DNA of 64,000 nucleotides from Escherichia phage W70, in sequence record OP778610; one strand, 5' to 3'. Position 1 is the stretch's first letter; each line of letters opens with the position of its first letter. Shown here piece by piece: positions 3,001 through 46,960 of the stretch. Below the pieces are notes generated by a model. It had not been told where the DNA came from and searched no databases. It saw nothing but the letters and a program-made list of their open reading frames with translations. A program made the position numbers and the translations under genes.

Positions 3001-4539
3001 ATGGCAAAACTTACGATTGAAGAAAGCAATATGATTGAAATGCAAGTCTCTGAAGCAGAGCGTATCATCGAGGCTGCTAGTCTACAACTGATGCGGTTTA
3101 AGCCCTTCTACGGGGTAATGCTTTCTTCTATGCCTGTTAAAAAGGCGACGGAGTGGTGTAGTACAATGGCGACTGATGGACGTAACCTGTATTACCATCC
3201 AGAGTTCGTTGCAGGTATGACAGAAGAACGTAAAAAATTGGTACTTGATCGACTTTCCAAAACTGAGAAAGATCCTAAAAAGCTGAAAGAGTCCACTGAG
3301 TTTATTAATGTCTTCTATCGTCGCAAGACTGCCCGTGAGCTTGCTCTTATTCTTGAGCACGAATGTGATCATGTGATCTCTGATCATGCCTCTCGTGGTA
3401 AAGGATTTAATCATGAACTTTACAACATTGCGGCTGACCATCGTATCAATACAACGGCTGTGCTTATTCACCAAAAAGGGGATGAGTTAGGTAAAGCATG
3501 GTTCCCTGCCGGAGAGAGAACAGTATTTGATAAGAATGCTGAGTTTGGATTTATGGCCTGGTCTTACTGTGATTTCCGATTCAAAGATATGTATACTGAG
3601 CAGATCTATGAAATCCTGAATAAAGAGCAAGATGATAAAGAAAAATCCAAAGGACAAGGTTCTGGTTCTGGAAGTGGAGAGGGTGATGGTGAAGAGGGTG
3701 ATCAAGGTCGTAAAGGTGTTGATCAGCACATGGACCAGAACGGCGATCCAGAAGATTCAGAAGGCGATAGTGTCGAAGATGCGTTAGGAATCGACCGTAA
3801 AGCGAAGCCTAAGCAAACAGCAGAGGAACGCCAGTATAACGATGGGGTTATGCGTCGAGCCATTGAGAATGCCGTACAGGCAGCAGGAAGCGGTGCGCCG
3901 GAAGATGCTCGTCGTTTTGTAGAAGCAGCAGGTAAACCAAAGATTAACTATCTTCGTTTGTTGCGTAAAACTATTGAACGTCTGTTTAAAGATGATGTAT
4001 CATATCGTCGTTTGTCACGCCGTAGTCACTCGTTAACTCGAACTCTTCGTAGTTCTGGTTACTTGTCTGGACGACAGACGATTGGTTTACCATCGAAGAA
4101 CAAACAGAAGACTATTCGTGCGGGTGTCTTCTTCGACGTATCGGGATCATTTAACGATGATCTATTGCGTCCAACAATGCGTGAGATTCGTGGATTATGT
4201 AATCTTTACGACGAATTTGAGGTCACGATGGCTTGCTGGTCAACAAAGGTTGGTAACATCGAGACGTATACGAAAAGAAACGTTGGTGAGATTGCTGACT
4301 ATAAGATCAAAACGACATTTGGTACGGATGTTTCTTGTGTGTTTGAAGCATTAGATGAAATGGAAGACCCTATGGATCAGATCATCATCTATACTGACGG
4401 TTACTTTGCTGATGTATCCCAAAAGAAAGATTGGGCCAAAAAGTATGGTAAGAATGTTCTTTGGATCATCCTGGGCCGTGGGTCTTCGTTCACCCCACCT
4501 TTCGGCAAGGCAATTGATTTTGACAAGTATCTTAAATAA
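3001..4539 (+). CDS. DUF2201-like protein: putative HExxH metallopeptidase-like N-domain plus VWA-like C-domain
   Basis: HExxH in LEHECDH; Gly/Ser/acidic low-complexity linker (aa ~215-250); C-terminal half VWA-like; directly follows AAA+ gene. Confidence 0.55.
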   Translation: MAKLTIEESNMIEMQVSEAERIIEAASLQLMRFKPFYGVMLSSMPVKKATEWCSTMATDGRNLYYHPEFVAGMTEERKKLVLDRLSKTEKDPKKLKESTEFINVFYRRKTARELALILEHECDHVISDHASRGKGFNHELYNIAADHRINTTAVLIHQKGDELGKAWFPAGERTVFDKNAEFGFMAWSYCDFRFKDMYTEQIYEILNKEQDDKEKSKGQGSGSGSGEGDGEEGDQGRKGVDQHMDQNGDPEDSEGDSVEDALGIDRKAKPKQTAEERQYNDGVMRRAIENAVQAAGSGAPEDARRFVEAAGKPKINYLRLLRKTIERLFKDDVSYRRLSRRSHSLTRTLRSSGYLSGRQTIGLPSKNKQKTIRAGVFFDVSGSFNDDLLRPTMREIRGLCNLYDEFEVTMACWSTKVGNIETYTKRNVGEIADYKIKTTFGTDVSCVFEALDEMEDPMDQIIIYTDGYFADVSQKKDWAKKYGKNVLWIILGRGSSFTPPFGKAIDFDKYLK

Positions 4540-35750: not shown

Positions 35751-36076
35751 TTTTTAACTCCGAAGATCTTAGATAGTAATTTATCATTCCCGATAGTTAC
35801 ACCACAAAAACTTTTTACTCCGTATACTAGATACGACCCGATTGTAACACAGATAATGATCGGATAAACAAGATACCAAAAGAATGTTGCAAGTATCCAC
35901 CCTGCCATCACCATACGTAAATTTACATTTTCGTTATTCAGTGGCTCCAGGATATAAATATCCTCACAATCTTTTGGGAAGGGGATGTTGAACCCCTTCT
36001 GCCGTAATTTGATCAGTAAGAACCAAAGTGGGCAACTAATAAGACAACCTATTAAATAACCTTCAACCATTTTCAC
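35747..36076 (-). CDS. hypothetical membrane protein, tandem paralog A
   Basis: WFLLIKLRQKGF motif; TM helices. Confidence 0.5.
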   Translation of the reverse strand: MKMVEGYLIGCLISCPLWFLLIKLRQKGFNIPFPKDCEDIYILEPLNNENVNLRMVMAGWILATFFWYLVYPIIICVTIGSYLVYGVKSFCGVTIGNDKLLSKIFGVKK

Positions 36077-37313
36077 TCTCCTTCAACTTGTCAAGATATT
36101 GTGTAACGTATCTTACTTTTACATTTCGGATTCTGCTCTTGATCTCATCTGGACGTCCCGCGAATTTTTCAGAAATCTCTTTACTTTCTTTTGAGATTGC
36201 AACACTGTTCTGAATAATCCCCGCCAGTGCTGAGAATAATACCAGTGGTTGACTGTAGTTGTCAAACATTTTTTCAGGTCCACGCCCACGAGCATCACAG
36301 ATGCAAGCGTCAATAAATTCAGAGAGGAATGCTTGGTCCTTTTCACCACGTAAGGCTACTAACAAGTCATAAACTTTCTTTGGCTTCATTTCTTTGATAC
36401 GGTGAAGTCGTGTATGATGCTCAGTTACAGCTAAAGCCAACTTCTTCCAATTATTGGGGACACCAAAGCGATCACAAACTTGTTCAGTTAACTTGATACC
36501 ATGTTCTTCGTGACCGTGCAGTTTACCCGTTAGCCAATAAATACATTTACCTAAGTCGTGACAAAGGACTGCCCACTTCACAGCCTCACTTGCACGAGTC
36601 GCCTGGGCATAATCCATGCAAAGTAAAGTGTGAACAAATGCATCACCTTCAGGATGGTGCTCCTTGGGTTGAACAACATCGTATAAATCCACAAGCTCAG
36701 GAAATTCTCCCAGTTGAGTCAACATACGGATCATTACCGAAGGTTTATTCATTTCTGACTGATCACTGAAGCATTTCTTAATCTCTGCAAATTTACGCTC
36801 TTTTGGCAATGCACTTAAATCCACACTCCGACACATTAGCCAAGTGTCAGGATCAATTGTAAACTCACCGCCGTATCTGGCATGTAATCTGGCTAGTCGG
36901 TACACACGTAAAGGGTCTTCGATAAATGCTTTAGTGGATACACAACGTAACCGACGAAGTTCAATATCCATTGCACCATTACAAGGGTCGATAATTTCGC
37001 CCGTGGAAATATCCTTGGCGATCGCATTAATGGTTAAATCTCTTCGCATCAGGTCTTGTTCAATTGTAACGTCTGGAGAGAACACAACTTCGAAATCGTG
37101 ATAACCAGGGCCTGTTGATCTTTCCGTTCGAGCAAGAGCATACTCTTCTTTAGTGTTCGGTTCAAGGTACACAGGGAAAGCTGCACCAACCTTAGTAAAT
37201 CCCTTCTCAATCATTTCTTCATGGGTCGCTCCAACTACAACGTAGTCACGATCCTTGCTTTCAACACTCATTAGTTCATCGCGAACTGCACCACCTACCA
37301 AGTAAACTTTCAT
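36063..37313 (-). CDS. cca: tRNA nucleotidyltransferase (CCA-adding enzyme) with HD domain
   Basis: MKVYLVGGAVRDELM, DRDYVV, RRDLTINAIA head-domain motifs; SD GGGAG 6 nt upstream of chosen ATG; track ORF extends to 37361. Confidence 0.7.
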   Translation of the reverse strand: MKVYLVGGAVRDELMSVESKDRDYVVVGATHEEMIEKGFTKVGAAFPVYLEPNTKEEYALARTERSTGPGYHDFEVVFSPDVTIEQDLMRRDLTINAIAKDISTGEIIDPCNGAMDIELRRLRCVSTKAFIEDPLRVYRLARLHARYGGEFTIDPDTWLMCRSVDLSALPKERKFAEIKKCFSDQSEMNKPSVMIRMLTQLGEFPELVDLYDVVQPKEHHPEGDAFVHTLLCMDYAQATRASEAVKWAVLCHDLGKCIYWLTGKLHGHEEHGIKLTEQVCDRFGVPNNWKKLALAVTEHHTRLHRIKEMKPKKVYDLLVALRGEKDQAFLSEFIDACICDARGRGPEKMFDNYSQPLVLFSALAGIIQNSVAISKESKEISEKFAGRPDEIKSRIRNVKVRYVTQYLDKLKESENG

Positions 37314-37351
37314 TCCTTCTTCTCCCATTCTTTCCAATTCTGCATGTCCGC

Positions 37352-37516
37352 TCATAGCCATCCCCTTTCTTTATACCCTTTTGTAAATCCTGATTCCCAA
37401 TCTTGAAATTGCTCCGGCATGGTGTTTGGATTATACGGGTTGTTTCTCTTGAACATCCCAAACTTGAATCCAGCGGCTCGGCCCTTCTCGTATGCTGAAC
37501 TGCTTTTTCTTGTCAT
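37352..37516 (-). CDS. hypothetical small basic protein
   Basis: internal ATG overlapping upstream stop; 54 aa. Confidence 0.35.
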   Translation of the reverse strand: MTRKSSSAYEKGRAAGFKFGMFKRNNPYNPNTMPEQFQDWESGFTKGYKERGWL

Positions 37517-37842
37517 ACTCTTTCTCCTCTTAAATTTAAAGACCAATCTTTTATTTCTTCTTTCCAGTTCGTATTTCTCTTAATGTCTTGCTTTTGACCG
37601 CGAAGATAGTTAATGATCTCAAGCGGGTCTTGCTTAACAAAAGAAATATTGTCGATCGGGCACTCAACTAACTTAAGCATCCTTTCAAAACGATTATACT
37701 CATCTTCTGATTTCGGTGCAACAGGAATAACATCATAATCTTCAAGATTGTCGAGAGTTTCAAGGGTAACCCTCATCTCGTAGCCTTCTAATCTCTTTGT
37801 CTTGATACCAAACACTCTTCGAAAGTAAATGTAATATTTCAT
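37513..37842 (-). CDS. hypothetical protein
   Basis: 109 aa. Confidence 0.5.
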   Translation of the reverse strand: MKYYIYFRRVFGIKTKRLEGYEMRVTLETLDNLEDYDVIPVAPKSEDEYNRFERMLKLVECPIDNISFVKQDPLEIINYLRGQKQDIKRNTNWKEEIKDWSLNLRGERV

Positions 37843-37902
37843 TATGTTCTCCTACTTAATGATCATCATTATACACATCCCTGAATTCAAGTCAACAAAA
37901 AA

Positions 37903-37920
37903 GGCCACCCGAAGGTGACC
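37903..37920 (-). terminator. rho-independent terminator (minus strand)
   Basis: GGTCACC-TTCG-GGTGGCC on minus strand followed by TTTTTT. Confidence 0.55.
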
Positions 37921-37927
37921 TTTAAAT

Positions 37928-38437
37928 TTAAGGGTGAATCCAGTAAAAAGGTTTTGTTAAACCAAGTTTACCTTTCGGGTCCCAAATGAAGTAGGCATAC
38001 GCCGCACCATCTGTTTTCCCATCCTCAGTAAAAGAGGGTCGCTTGGATAGAGTAACCAAGTGATCAACAGGATATTCCTTCCAGAACTCCACACGTTTGG
38101 TACTCTCAAGGAAACCTAAACGAAGCAGCATTATCACCACATCAGCATCCTTGTGAGCCTTCTCTACAAACTCTTGAGCTAAATTATAAGGTGGGTTAGT
38201 TAACACACAATCTACCTTATTGTATTTAGTTGCAAGATAATCAACACCTTCTTGAATCTCTCCCCAAGCTGAACCAATTGGCATTTCATTATAAAAACGT
38301 CCAGAGGCTCTGCAAGGTTCCAGATAAGTCCAATCCTGACGGATTGGAACTAAATTCAAGAAAGCATCTACTGCCCATTTCGGAGTTTCATAGCGATCAT
38401 TTTCACGGCGCTCTGCTTTAGGTTTCAATGCTGCCAC
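37928..38437 (-). CDS. DNA N6-adenine methyltransferase (Dam-like, NPPY motif)
   Basis: DRYETPKWAVDAF and VDCVLTNPPYNLAQEF motifs; 169 aa. Confidence 0.65.
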   Translation of the reverse strand: MAALKPKAERRENDRYETPKWAVDAFLNLVPIRQDWTYLEPCRASGRFYNEMPIGSAWGEIQEGVDYLATKYNKVDCVLTNPPYNLAQEFVEKAHKDADVVIMLLRLGFLESTKRVEFWKEYPVDHLVTLSKRPSFTEDGKTDGAAYAYFIWDPKGKLGLTKPFYWIHP

Positions 38438-38439
38438 TC

Positions 38440-39285
38440 TTATTTGCCCCCTTCTTTCGCCGCAGTGATGATCTGTTCAATTAACTCATCACGATAATAA
38501 ACGTACTGTTCAACACCGAAACATTCCGCAATCTCGTCTAGTTCGTCGAGGTTGTACTCGTCAAAGTCTCGTGGGTTAAGAGTAAAGATGTTGAATTTTT
38601 TGGCGTAGCCTTCGTCGAGGACGATTTCAAATTCTCCCTCTCCGATTTCCTTCGCATCATCAACATCACTCGATTCGATTGACCCTTCAACCTTAATCCC
38701 CCCTGTATTTTGTTGATCGGCTTCCATTTGCTTTTTAATTGCTTCATCTTCAGCGGTCAAACGGGCTTGCATCTGAGAGGAAGTGAAGTAAATTTCGCCA
38801 GCACGATCAAACAGTTCAACGAGTTCATCTTCTGTCATAACACCCTTGTACAGATCGTAGTATTTCTCTTTGAACAGGTCTTTGTAGAAATCGCTACGTT
38901 TAAATACCAGTGCTGAATCACCACCCATACTCATCTGAACGTTGTGGAACATGTAATGAGAACCTGGACGACAAATTCGAACATGACCAGACAAGAAGAT
39001 CATTGTTGCAGCACTTGCCACTTCACCAATACCGTGTGTTACAACAGTCGCCTTTGTTTCAGAGATCGCTGTCATGTACATATCTGCGATATCACAATAA
39101 CCACCACAAGAAGTAATGTACAGATTTACAATATCACCTTCAGGTGCTGAACGAATCAGGTCAACAGCCTCGATATGTGCTTCAGGTGAATTGTGCAGAT
39201 CCGTAACATAAATACGCCAATCGTTAGAAGTTACTGGAGACACCCAAATGTTTTTTGCCGGACCATTCATTACGATTTCTTCCAT
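38440..39285 (-). CDS. ClpP-like serine peptidase (S14 family)
   Basis: ITSCGGY..GEVASAATMIFLSG..MFHNVQ resembles ClpP catalytic core; acidic C-terminal extension. Confidence 0.55.
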   Translation of the reverse strand: MEEIVMNGPAKNIWVSPVTSNDWRIYVTDLHNSPEAHIEAVDLIRSAPEGDIVNLYITSCGGYCDIADMYMTAISETKATVVTHGIGEVASAATMIFLSGHVRICRPGSHYMFHNVQMSMGGDSALVFKRSDFYKDLFKEKYYDLYKGVMTEDELVELFDRAGEIYFTSSQMQARLTAEDEAIKKQMEADQQNTGGIKVEGSIESSDVDDAKEIGEGEFEIVLDEGYAKKFNIFTLNPRDFDEYNLDELDEIAECFGVEQYVYYRDELIEQIITAAKEGGK

Positions 39286-39297
39286 ATTAATTCCCCC

Positions 39298-39768
39298 TTA
39301 GCTAATTAAAGTACGGATGCGGGTAGCGTTTTGCAGAACCCAGTCTACTACGACAGAATGATCAGAGTCAACAATTACTTCATGATGACGTTTGAACATA
39401 TCAAGAATCTTTGCTGCTTCGGCAGTATAAAGTGCCGCACGATCTAAAAAGATAATCTGCTCTTTAAGTTCTTCTGTAATCGGACATAACTTACTTGGGA
39501 CCTTGATGGCTGACAAATGTTCTACCAACTCTTTTCGAGTAGAGAACATAATATCAACTTCCTGATCGATACTAAGAGAGCCTAAGAATAAGCGAGAAAA
39601 CCATCCACGATACTCATCGTTGTTTTTACGCAAAGTCTTAATTCCAAATATTAACTCTTCGAACAGGGCTGTTGCAATTTCTTCAATACGATCAGGAACA
39701 ATAGCCCCACAATTTTTCAATTCCATCAGTTTACGATGATCAACTGTTGCGTACATACCCTTATCCAT
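39298..39768 (-). CDS. hypothetical protein
   Basis: 156 aa. Confidence 0.5.
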   Translation of the reverse strand: MDKGMYATVDHRKLMELKNCGAIVPDRIEEIATALFEELIFGIKTLRKNNDEYRGWFSRLFLGSLSIDQEVDIMFSTRKELVEHLSAIKVPSKLCPITEELKEQIIFLDRAALYTAEAAKILDMFKRHHEVIVDSDHSVVVDWVLQNATRIRTLIS

Positions 39769-39776
39769 ATCACCCC

Positions 39777-40094
39777 TTAAATTCCGATTAAATATTTAAA
39801 CTTCCCGTCGTTCTCTGCGATCTTGTGGATTACATAGAACCAATTTTCAATTCCGTCTTCATCTTCCTCTTTCACACGATCACCAGTTTTTAACTCAACC
39901 TCGGAAACGTACTCCTTACTTTCAAGGAAATACTTCCACTGAACCATGTCTTTAAAATTACAGATTAGTTTATTTTTGCCATCTGTCGTCCAAAGGTCCT
40001 GATTGACCCACATACCAACAACGAAATTCTTTTCTTTCTTAGGACGACCAAGTGCATAAGTGTTGTTTAACATCTTTGCTTTATCTAAGACCAC
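39777..40094 (-). CDS. hypothetical protein
   Basis: 105 aa. Confidence 0.5.
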   Translation of the reverse strand: MVLDKAKMLNNTYALGRPKKEKNFVVGMWVNQDLWTTDGKNKLICNFKDMVQWKYFLESKEYVSEVELKTGDRVKEEDEDGIENWFYVIHKIAENDGKFKYLIGI

Positions 40095-40713
40095 GTTTTG
40101 ACTCCAAGTTAACTAAGAAACTCTCAAGCACTGCGATGTTGTCTTCTTTCCAAAGATTAAGTGTTCTTACACCATTCTTCTTTGCCAGATTGACTGCTGT
40201 TGCAGTGCCGCCTTTAGGATTACCCGTCTTTGTTTCCTTTGCGTAGTATATCACAAATTTACTTTGCATCAAGTAGGCATTTGAAAGATTTTTACCAAAA
40301 ATTTGGTGTACGTTTCTTTCGTGTAATTTCCTTGCCCCTTGACTCAACTTGTCCCATCCACCATGAACTTCCTTTATCCATTCCCATCGCATTTCTGTAT
40401 GTTCTGGAAATTCTTTATCAATCGTGTTCAGGGAGATATTATACAGATCTTTAAGTCCTTGTCCACCTTTAAAGTTGTCCCAAGGAACATATATCTCTGC
40501 AAGTTTGCTCGGTGATTGAGTCATATTGCAATCTTCATGAAACTTCTGCATACCTCTTTGGAAAGCTGCATCTGCACCATCTGCACCGCCAGATCGTAAT
40601 GTATATCCGACCCTTGCTAATCTCCAACCCGCATCTTCCATAATTTTTAATACTTCTTCAGGGGCCTCCCTTGAACCTATTCCTGTATAAGCTGGCACTT
40701 TAACCTCCTTCAT
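40081..40713 (-). CDS. SLOG/DprA-like Rossmann-fold protein (start uncertain)
   Basis: TGIGSR and RSGGADGADAAF motifs; track ORF extends to 40812, overlapping nrdG; no SD at any candidate start. Confidence 0.4.
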   Translation of the reverse strand: MKEVKVPAYTGIGSREAPEEVLKIMEDAGWRLARVGYTLRSGGADGADAAFQRGMQKFHEDCNMTQSPSKLAEIYVPWDNFKGGQGLKDLYNISLNTIDKEFPEHTEMRWEWIKEVHGGWDKLSQGARKLHERNVHQIFGKNLSNAYLMQSKFVIYYAKETKTGNPKGGTATAVNLAKKNGVRTLNLWKEDNIAVLESFLVNLESKRGLR

Positions 40714-46878: not shown

Positions 46879-46940
46879 CCTTTCCTCCTGTCTCGTTTAT
46901 GTGATTTATTATACGGATTACTTTACCAAAGTCAATAAAA

Positions 46941-46960
46941 AACCGCCCCAAAGGGCGGTT
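46941..46960 (-). terminator. rho-independent terminator (minus strand)
   Basis: AACCGCCC-TTTG-GGGCGGTT on minus strand followed by TTTTTT; shared terminator element. Confidence 0.7.

What the first reader, a model, noticed from the sequence alone, without database searches (positions are those of the whole stretch)
38440..39285. Phage ClpP-like protease with acidic C-terminal extension
The N-terminal ~190 aa resemble the ClpP catalytic core and the C-terminal ~90 aa are highly acidic. It sits beside Dam methyltransferase and CCA enzyme rather than head genes, so a role other than prohead maturation (for example targeted degradation of host factors) is plausible.
Basis: partly seen in the sequence, partly recalled or inferred. 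Interest (0 to 1): 0.45.

Follow-up and report, generated by a model that had tools for sequence, protein, structure and literature searches.

The report
Phage non-structural ClpP-like protease
This gene of a large E. coli phage encodes a ClpP-type protease that is not the phage's head-maturation enzyme; it lacks the usual docking site for ATP-driven unfoldases and carries a small, tethered, acidic domain, and nobody has tested what it does.

Summary
Window 38440-39285 (minus strand) is a 281-aa ORF, gene A73_220 of Escherichia phage A73 (Vequintavirinae). Residues 22-193 form a ClpP fold. Ser91 and His114 are invariant in 38 homologues, and the third triad position is Glu164 rather than Asp. 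The "acidic extension" is really two parts: a variable disordered linker (194-215) and a conserved ~65-aa folded domain (216-281) made of a beta-hairpin plus a helix-extended-helix of the Rho-N/SAP/LEM type, with net charge about -9.

The phage has a separate S78-type prohead protease in its head module. The ClpP-like gene lies in a nucleotide-metabolism operon, tightly packed between a conserved 156-aa protein of unknown function and an adenine-methyltransferase-like gene. This block is kept across Vequintavirinae.

Four of the seven E. coli ClpP residues that form the ClpX/ClpA docking pocket are polar or charged here. The database label "ATP-dependent protease subunit" is therefore unverified.

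Relatives already carry a ClpP annotation (PHROG 5410). No functional study was found; a 2023 paper calls the T5-type relative's function "currently unknown".

Verdict: a real, probably active, non-structural phage ClpP variant with unknown substrates. It is moderately interesting and not categorically new.

The parts
38440..39285 (-). Whole CDS A73_220, 281 aa: phage ClpP-like protease (stop codon 38440-38442)
39293..39299 (-). Shine-Dalgarno AAGGGGG for the ClpP-like gene; it overlaps the TAA stop of the upstream gene
39223..39285 (-). N-terminal segment, residues 1-21. It has a conserved N12/W14/P17 motif, is predicted as coil, and has no counterpart of ClpP helix A in the model
38707..39222 (-). 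ClpP-fold core, residues 22-193, including the handle helix 124-147 and the long last helix 169-193
39013..39015 (-). Ser91 codon, the catalytic nucleophile; it aligns with E. coli ClpP Ser111 (precursor numbering) and is invariant in 38/38 homologues
38944..38946 (-). His114 codon, the catalytic base; it aligns with E. coli His136 and is invariant in 38/38 homologues
38794..38796 (-). Glu164 codon at the position of the catalytic Asp185 of E. coli ClpP ('EIYFTS' against 'DRFLSA'); E in 37 and D in 1 of 38 homologues
38641..38706 (-). Disordered acidic linker, residues 194-215; the alignment region between Leu176 and Phe219 that contains it varies from 20 to 105 aa among homologues
38443..38640 (-). 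Conserved C-terminal domain, residues 216-281: beta-hairpin plus helix-extended-helix, acidic, with a nearly invariant DFDEYN motif
39298..39768 (-). Upstream gene A73_219 (156 aa, PHROG 7224, unknown function). It sits directly upstream of the ClpP-like gene in all five Vequintavirinae loci compared and is a candidate partner (inference)
37928..38437 (-). Downstream N6-adenine-methyltransferase-like gene A73_221. Its GTG start is 2 nt after the ClpP-like stop, and its SD lies inside the last codons of the ClpP-like gene
37900..37923 (-). Terminator-like hairpin just after the methyltransferase gene, the likely 3' end of the transcription unit (consensus match only)
46908..46935 (-). Sigma-70-like promoter match (TTGACT-16-TATAAT) after a terminator-like hairpin, the likely 5' end of the operon that carries the nrd genes, phoH and the ClpP-like gene (consensus match only)

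Best explanation
A73_220 is a phage-specific, non-structural member of the ClpP superfamily (PHROG 5410) and most likely an active serine peptidase.

Shown:
- It has a ClpP fold.
- Ser91 and His114 are invariant, and Glu164 is conserved at the position of the catalytic Asp.
- It is encoded in a nucleotide-metabolism/DNA-modification gene block, not in the head module.
- A separate S78-type prohead protease exists in the head module.
- The hydrophobic pocket that binds the IGF/LGF loops of ClpX/ClpA in canonical ClpP is largely replaced by polar or charged residues.
- The C-terminus is a flexible tether plus a conserved, acidic beta-hairpin/helix-extended-helix domain found almost only in this family.

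Inferred:
- The core assembles into ClpP-like rings that enclose the active sites.
- It does not dock host ClpX/ClpA in the canonical way.
- The seven tethered acidic domains per ring act as docking or recruiting modules. They would bring a protein partner or substrate to the chamber, or hold the protease at a particular place.
- The tightly packed, co-conserved upstream 156-aa protein is the most obvious candidate partner.
- The gene is made early or in the middle of infection.
For: - Fold and family.
- Triad: Ser91 and His114 are invariant in 38/38; position 164 is E in 37 and D in 1. It aligns without a gap to E. coli D185 and sits at the start of the equivalent strand, after the equivalent helix.
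- Not the head protease: Peptidase_S78_2 (E=3e-15) lies between the portal and scaffold/capsid genes in UPEC06. The same DNA is in A73 at record 3106-3675, 99.6% identical.
- Operon: sigma-70-like promoter 46935-46908, then nrd genes, phoH, a DprA-like gene, A73_219, the ClpP-like gene and the MTase, then a terminator-like hairpin at 37923-37900.
- Pocket: E. coli Y60/Y62/F82/I90/M92/F112/L114 map to N54/Y56/E76/H84/I86/I104/R106. Across the family these positions are mostly E/L/D/R/I/V/D.
- NCBIfam ClpP models score 24-30 bits against cut-offs of 228-251.
- Synteny: the order PHROG 7224 gene, ClpP-like gene, MTase gene is kept at 28-65% identity in five loci, with junctions from a 17-nt overlap to a 12-nt gap.
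Against: - No activity, oligomer state, partner, substrate or expression timing has been measured for this family or for any phage non-structural ClpP-like protein found in the searchable literature.
- A Ser-His-Glu arrangement is unusual for ClpP. The third position drifts in wider relatives: Q in Klebsiella phage VIK251, N in the T5 type, D in ICP1 gp211. Catalysis may therefore be weak or conditional.
- The pocket mapping rests on alignments at about 19% identity and on pocket residues recalled from the ClpP literature.
- The promoter and terminator sites are consensus matches only.
- The one in-frame fusion of A73_219 with the protease (Salmonella phage SSBI34) is a singleton among 95 clusters and looks like simple stop-codon loss.
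Confidence: 0.5

Rival explanations
1. [quoted passage not shown] The phage ring would dock host ClpX or ClpA and use their unfolding power to redirect host ATP-dependent proteolysis.
For: The fold is ClpP, Ser and His are conserved, and solved ClpPs are the only PDB matches. Relatives are annotated this way. No Clp-type unfoldase is annotated in the closely related UPEC06 genome, so any unfoldase would have to be the host's.
Against: Four of the seven mapped IGF-loop pocket positions are polar or charged in A73 (N54, E76, H84, R106), and they are E/D/R/D-E in most of the family. The N-terminal axial-loop and helix A region is replaced by a different conserved motif that the model predicts as coil. 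Scores against curated ClpP models are about a tenth of the cut-offs.
Confidence: 0.15
2. It is a partner or modifier of host ClpP. A phage heptamer would stack on a host ClpP heptamer, as Listeria ClpP1 and Pseudomonas ClpP2 do with their canonical isoforms. This would change the specificity or activity of the host protease, or poison it.
For: The best PDB sequence matches are P. aeruginosa ClpP2 (9ndj_P, 7m1l) and L. monocytogenes ClpP1 (4jcq/4ryf), isoforms solved as heterocomplexes with a second ClpP. From established literature, recalled and not tested here, those isoforms lack their own unfoldase docking, as this protein appears to. The T5-type relative has Asn at the third triad position, as the PDB entry title 'ClpP1 N165D mutant' implies for Listeria ClpP1. 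A handle helix is present.
Against: The E-values for those matches are only marginally better than for other ClpPs (1e-8 against 1e-5). No test of ring-ring compatibility was possible. The idea does not explain the conserved C-terminal domain or the conserved upstream gene.
Confidence: 0.15
3. It is a capsid- or virion-associated protease: a second maturation enzyme or a packaged protein. Its C-terminal domain would target it to the procapsid, as C-terminal extensions do in several prohead proteases (recalled, not tested here).
For: After the two 'ATP-dependent protease' PHROGs, the next-best families are ClpP-related head maturation proteases: phrog_1684 at 4e-17 and NCBIfam Clp_rel_HeadMat at 1.5e-7. 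Trace amounts of other phage ClpP-like proteins were detected in virion preparations of BF23 (PMC10644984) and CBB (1 peptide, PMC5259590).
Against: A dedicated S78-type prohead protease sits in the head module. The gene is in the nucleotide-metabolism block on the opposite strand, far from the structural genes. The NCBIfam head-maturation score is 31.5 against a cut-off of 120. There is no internal start with a ribosome-binding site that could make a nested scaffold-like product. The virion detections are trace-level and come from other sub-families.
Confidence: 0.1
4. It is a catalytically dead ClpP-fold scaffold whose function lies wholly in binding.
For: The canonical Asp is absent, and the third triad position varies (E/Q/D/N) across wider relatives.
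Against: Ser91, His114 and the surrounding GG and SAA motifs are invariant over 38 homologues that share only 33-58% identity with the query, which points to selection on catalysis.
Confidence: 0.05

Closest known systems
Bacterial ClpP (MEROPS S14, Pfam PF00574; e.g. E. coli ClpP, 1TYF)
   Same: Same fold (Foldseek E~1e-8, target-normalised TM up to 0.73). The catalytic Ser and His are in the same motifs, a handle helix is present, and the Pfam gathering score is passed.
   Different: Identity is about 19%. Glu replaces the catalytic Asp. The IGF/LGF docking pocket is mostly polar or charged. The N-terminal region differs. A ~90-aa C-terminal tether plus domain is added. Scores are far below the NCBIfam ClpP cut-offs.
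Non-canonical ClpP isoforms (Listeria ClpP1, Pseudomonas ClpP2)
   Same: They are the best sequence matches in the PDB. They share the degenerate unfoldase pocket (recalled from literature) and, in the T5-type relative, an altered third triad residue.
   Different: Those isoforms are cellular proteins that work with a second ClpP encoded in the same genome and have no C-terminal domain. Hetero-assembly of the phage protein is untested.
T5-type phage 'Clp protease' (PHROG 1827; BF23 ORF45, SP15 E0157_042, ICP1 gp211)
   Same: It is the nearest phage family (E=1.8e-35 over the core). It is also non-structural, encoded among early or nucleotide-metabolism genes, and its function was stated as 'currently unknown' in 2023.
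   Different: The T5 type is ~200 aa without the C-terminal domain and has Asn at the third triad position. ICP1 gp211 has Asp and a long C-terminal extension that is only loosely alignable.
ClpP-related prohead (head maturation) proteases (PHROG 1684/94, NCBIfam NF045542/NF045540)
   Same: They share the ClpP-fold core, and a protease core followed by a C-terminal extension is a common layout there.
   Different: Matches are much weaker (4e-17 and 1.5e-7; 31.5 bits against a cut-off of 120). The gene is not in the head module, and the phage has another prohead protease.
Helix-extended-helix domains (Rho N-terminal, SAP, LEM)
   Different: Here the motif is preceded by a beta-hairpin. It is strongly acidic (net about -9) with almost no conserved basic residues, so nucleic-acid binding is unlikely. 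Pfam Rho_N is below its cut-off (14.2 against 24.9).

Membership tests
ClpP / Pfam PF00574 CLP_protease (MEROPS S14) | Sequence match above the curated Pfam gathering score | tested here: met
   34 bits against a cut-off of 20.2, E=3.5e-8, but only residues 51-122 are aligned
ClpP / Pfam PF00574 CLP_protease (MEROPS S14) | ClpP alpha/beta fold with a handle helix | tested here: met
   AlphaFold model with pLDDT >=89 over most of residues 22-190; all 50 listed Foldseek PDB hits are ClpPs, E~1e-8, target-normalised TM 0.52-0.73 (0.62-0.73 for most)
ClpP / Pfam PF00574 CLP_protease (MEROPS S14) | Catalytic Ser and His in the conserved motifs | tested here: met
   Ser91 (GEVASAA) and His114 (MFHN) align with E. 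coli S111/H136 and are invariant in 38/38 homologues
ClpP / Pfam PF00574 CLP_protease (MEROPS S14) | Catalytic Asp completing the Ser-His-Asp triad | tested here: not met
   The position holds Glu164 (E in 37/38, D in 1/38). Wider relatives have Q, D or N. Glu may substitute functionally, but the geometry could not be measured
ClpP, bona fide orthologue (NCBIfam PRK00277, PRK12553, PRK14512) | Score above the curated whole-protein cut-off | tested here: not met
   24-30 bits against cut-offs of 228-251
ClpP as an ATP-dependent protease subunit | Hydrophobic pocket for the IGF/LGF loops of ClpX/ClpA (E. coli Y60, Y62, F82, I90, M92, F112, L114; residue list recalled from the ClpP literature) | tested here: not met
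   The positions map to N54, Y56, E76, H84, I86, I104, R106. The family majority is E, L, D, R, I, V/I, D/E
ClpP as an ATP-dependent protease subunit | Heptameric rings or a tetradecameric chamber, and functional coupling to an AAA+ unfoldase | not testable with these tools
   No multimer prediction or biochemistry was available. No Clp-type unfoldase is annotated in the UPEC06 genome, only a MoxR-type AAA+ ATPase
ClpP-related head maturation protease (NCBIfam NF045542; PHROG 1684) | Score above the curated cut-off | tested here: not met
   31.5 bits against a cut-off of 120. PHROG 1684 gives 3.7e-17, against 2.8e-77 for PHROG 5410
ClpP-related head maturation protease (NCBIfam NF045542; PHROG 1684) | Gene lies in the head module next to the portal, scaffold and capsid genes, and is the phage's maturation protease | tested here: not met
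   The gene lies among nrd, phoH, MTase and CCA-enzyme genes. A Peptidase_S78_2 protease occupies the head-module position
PHROG 5410 (phage 'ATP-dependent protease', category other) | Full-length profile match including the C-terminal domain | tested here: met
   E=2.8e-77, residues 11-278 against profile positions 17-312 of 323. The Klebsiella and Acinetobacter phage homologues match the same family
Helix-extended-helix domain (Pfam Rho_N / SAP / LEM) for residues ~236-281 | Sequence match above the Pfam cut-off, or clear structural similarity | tested here: inconclusive

The most novel reading that the evidence does not exclude
The protein is a 'baited' anti-defence protease. The seven tethered acidic helix-extended-helix domains would act as nucleic-acid mimics or decoys that capture host DNA-binding defence or nucleoid proteins, for example restriction enzymes. 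Captured proteins would be fed to an unfoldase-independent ClpP-like chamber, perhaps with help from the upstream 156-aa protein. The tightly packed methyltransferase gene would protect the phage DNA in parallel.

The lead from the literature is that host ClpXP is known to degrade the HsdR subunit of a type I restriction enzyme during restriction alleviation (PMC4231737, abstract listed).

The evidence does not exclude this reading. The domain belongs to a fold class that normally binds DNA, RNA or proteins, yet here it is strongly acidic. It is nearly unique to this family. The order protease gene then MTase gene, with a tight junction, is kept across the subfamily.
Probability: 0.07. Interest if true: 0.8.

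Novelty: new variant of a known kind. Interest (0 to 1): 0.35.

Why it matters
ClpP-like genes that are not head proteases turn up in more than a thousand sequenced phages, including T5-like phages, ICP1 and Vequintavirinae. None found in the searchable literature has a known function.

This variant keeps the catalytic Ser and His but lacks the unfoldase docking pocket and carries a tethered binding domain. If it is an active protease, it would show how a virus builds its own regulated proteolysis without the host's ATP-dependent machinery. Trapping its substrates could reveal which host or phage proteins must be removed during infection.

It also cautions that the routine label 'ATP-dependent Clp protease subunit' on these phage genes is not backed by the features that make ClpP ATP-dependent.

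Tried and rejected
- **Literature.** Eight full-text searches covered phage-encoded ClpP, T5, ICP1, rV5 and Vequintavirinae. They found only genome-note mentions, the BF23 statement that the function is unknown, and two trace virion detections. No functional study turned up (one search failed on term length).
- **C-terminal domain in other proteins.** A profile search of 1.84 billion representatives found it only in this family, plus partial matches of the helical part to repeat proteins.
- **Defence-system models.** PADLOC gave no hit for the protease or its upstream neighbour.
- **Upstream 156-aa protein.** It has no Pfam family, no solved relative (best E=0.36) and no recurrent fusion. All 95 clusters are 120-185 aa. 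The Salmonella phage SSBI34 'fusion' reads through the ribosome-binding site and is a singleton, so it was rejected as Rosetta-stone evidence.
- **Nested internal start.** No in-frame start with a Shine-Dalgarno site was found that could produce a separate C-terminal product, as in lambda C/Nu3.
- **ICP1 context.** The gene next to gp211 is an HNH endonuclease, so only the proximity to phoH is shared, not the whole block.
- **Ser-Lys dyad.** A dyad as in NfeD/SppA-type ClpP-fold proteases was considered because Lys139 is nearly invariant. It was rejected because His114 is invariant, only the CLP_protease family matches in Pfam, and E. coli ClpP has Lys at the same aligned column.
- **Triad geometry.** It could not be measured because model coordinates are not exposed.

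Full report
**What is there.** The window is part of Escherichia phage A73 (OP778609.1, Vequintavirinae, 142 kb); window position equals record position minus 68,686. It runs from 38440 to 39285 on the minus strand and encodes 281 aa. It has an ATG start, an AAGGGGG Shine-Dalgarno site 7 nt upstream, and a conserved Met1 in homologues. In A73 it is annotated as hypothetical protein A73_220. In the ~95%-identical phage UPEC06 the same gene is already called 'putative ClpP ATP-dependent protease subunit'.

**ClpP likeness.**
- Pfam CLP_protease is passed: 34 bits against a cut-off of 20.2, E=3.5e-8, residues 51-122.
- PHROG 5410 'ATP-dependent protease' matches the full length at E=2.8e-77. The T5-type PHROG 1827 matches the core at 1.8e-35.
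- All sequence matches in the PDB are ClpPs. The best are Pseudomonas ClpP2 and Listeria ClpP1.
- An AlphaFold model built on 38 homologues (mean pLDDT 79) has a ClpP core at residues 22-193. Foldseek places it among solved ClpPs at E~1e-8, with target-normalised TM 0.62-0.73.
- The protein is nevertheless far from true ClpP. Identity to E. coli ClpP is about 19%. NCBIfam ClpP models score 24-30 bits against cut-offs of 228-251.

**Catalytic residues.** Ser91 (GEVASAA) and His114 (MFHN) align with E. coli Ser111 and His136 (precursor numbering) and are invariant in all 38 homologues. The third triad residue is not Asp. 'EIYFTS' aligns without a gap to E. coli 'DRFLSA', and in the model Glu164 opens the strand that follows the equivalent helix. 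The position is Glu in 37 homologues and Asp in one. In wider phage relatives it is Gln (Klebsiella phage VIK251), Asp (ICP1 gp211) or Asn (T5-like SP15). The triad is non-canonical, however, and its geometry could not be measured here.

**The C-terminal part.** Residues 191-281 are acidic: 26% D+E, net -16, pI 4.05. The core is acidic too (net -13). The region has clear structure:
- The last core helix runs to residue 193.
- Residues 194-215 are predicted disordered (pLDDT<50).
- Residues 216-281 form a small domain made of a beta-hairpin and a helix-extended-helix. Modelled alone it has pLDDT 86.

**Not the head protease.** In UPEC06 the head module reads: large terminase, portal (Portal_Mu), a 189-aa protease (Peptidase_S78_2, E=3e-15), a 364-aa protein, a decoration protein, and the major capsid protein. 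The same protease DNA is present in A73 at record 3106-3675 at 99.6% identity, about 104 kb from A73_220. No in-frame internal start with a ribosome-binding site exists that could make a nested scaffold-like product.

**Genomic context.** A73_220 is the penultimate gene of a minus-strand block. A sigma-70-like promoter match lies at 46935-46908. It is followed by nrdB, an endolysin-like gene, phoH, nrdD, nrdG, a DprA-like gene, two genes of unknown function, the ClpP-like gene and the methyltransferase gene. A terminator-like hairpin lies at 37923-37900 (these are consensus matches only).

The order phoH, DprA-like gene, ~105-aa gene, ~156-aa gene (PHROG 7224), ClpP-like gene, methyltransferase gene, then further on the CCA enzyme, is kept in:
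- two metagenomic phage contigs;
- Acinetobacter phage ABPH49;
- Klebsiella phage VIK251.

The protease is only 32-46% identical across these loci. Junctions are tight on both sides, from a 17-nt overlap to a 12-nt gap, and the ribosome-binding site of each downstream gene lies in the end of the gene before it. The PHROG 7224 protein has no detectable relatives of known function.

**Unfoldase docking.** The seven residues that line the IGF/LGF-loop pocket of E. coli ClpP are Y60, Y62, F82, I90, M92, F112 and L114 in mature numbering; this list is recalled from the ClpP structural literature. They map to N54, Y56, E76, H84, I86, I104 and R106 in A73. In most of the family they are E, L, D, R, I, V/I and D/E. 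The N-terminal segment is conserved but differs from ClpP's and is modelled as coil. No Clp-type unfoldase is annotated in UPEC06, only a MoxR-type AAA+ ATPase. The 'ATP-dependent' label is therefore unsupported.

**Interpretation.** The most likely reading (confidence about 0.5) is a phage-specific, non-structural ClpP-fold serine peptidase. It would assemble into rings, would not use canonical ClpX/ClpA docking, and would use its tethered acidic domains to dock a partner or recruit substrates. The co-conserved upstream protein is the first candidate partner.

The rivals are:
- a true ClpX/ClpA-dependent surrogate (0.15);
- a partner or poison of host ClpP, in the manner of Listeria ClpP1 and Pseudomonas ClpP2 (0.15);
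- a capsid-associated protease (0.1);
- a dead scaffold (0.05).

**Literature and novelty.** Full-text searches found no functional work on any phage non-structural ClpP-like protein. The BF23 study states that the function of the T5-type Clp protease is 'currently unknown' and detected it at a low level in virions (PMC10644984). One peptide of another ClpP-like protein was seen in CBB virions (PMC5259590). Vequintavirinae genome papers only list the gene.

The gene family is already catalogued. Three features are not described in what I could search: the Glu at the triad position, the degenerate docking pocket, and the family-restricted acidic helix-extended-helix domain on a tether. I rate this a new variant of a known kind, interest 0.35.

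The most novel reading not excluded is a decoy-baited anti-defence protease working alongside the adjacent methyltransferase (probability about 0.07).

Noticed in passing
window 37352-37546 (-), A73_223: A 64-aa protein has a weak match to ribosome modulation factor (Pfam RMF, E=0.018, 15.5 bits against a cut-off of 27.9). It may be a phage RMF-like protein, encoded just upstream of the CCA-adding enzyme gene.
   Followed up: no
window 40081-40698 (-), A73_217: A DprA-like/SLOG protein (PHROG 768, 5e-64) also gives a weak hit to PsyrA of the PsyrTA defence system (PADLOC, 4e-5). It is part of the block conserved with the protease.
   Followed up: partly
P0038 (Salmonella phage SSBI34, 448 aa); corresponds to window 38440-39768: The upstream PHROG 7224 gene and the ClpP-like gene are read as one ORF. 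The stop codon is lost and the ribosome-binding site is translated as '...KGGLIM...'. It is a singleton among 95 clusters, so probably a mutation or sequencing error rather than a meaningful fusion.
   Followed up: partly
homologues P0004-P0034, linker region aligned to window ~38641-38706: Longer homologues carry a conserved 'V-x-LPFP-E-x-K-V' motif in the linker. The A73 lineage (A73, P0002, P0003) lacks it, and the same three sequences also differ at two of the pocket-equivalent positions (N54, R106). This is a single lineage event, so it is not statistical evidence of covariation.
   Followed up: no
UPEC06 MW250786.1 119393-122235 (L011 19393-22235); the homologous A73 region would lie just before the window start: A MoxR-type AAA+ ATPase gene is followed by a 510-aa protein of unknown function. 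It is the only AAA+ ATPase annotated in this phage type. No link to the protease was tested.
   Followed up: no
window 1-64000: ARAGORN finds no tRNA gene in the 64-kb window, although it encodes a CCA-adding tRNA nucleotidyltransferase with an HD domain (36063-37355).
   Followed up: no
window 37928-38437 (-), A73_221: The 'Dam' methyltransferase is a minimal 169-aa enzyme with an NPPY motif. It matches PHROG 799 but only the middle of that 458-position profile, and Pfam Dam only at E=0.046. Its target base and sequence are unknown.
   Followed up: partly
window 37900-37923 and 46941-46960 (-): Strong terminator-like hairpins are each followed within ~5-30 nt by an 11/12 match to the sigma-70 promoter consensus (37895-37868 and 46935-46908). 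This suggests a repeated terminator-promoter punctuation of the minus-strand gene blocks.
   Followed up: no
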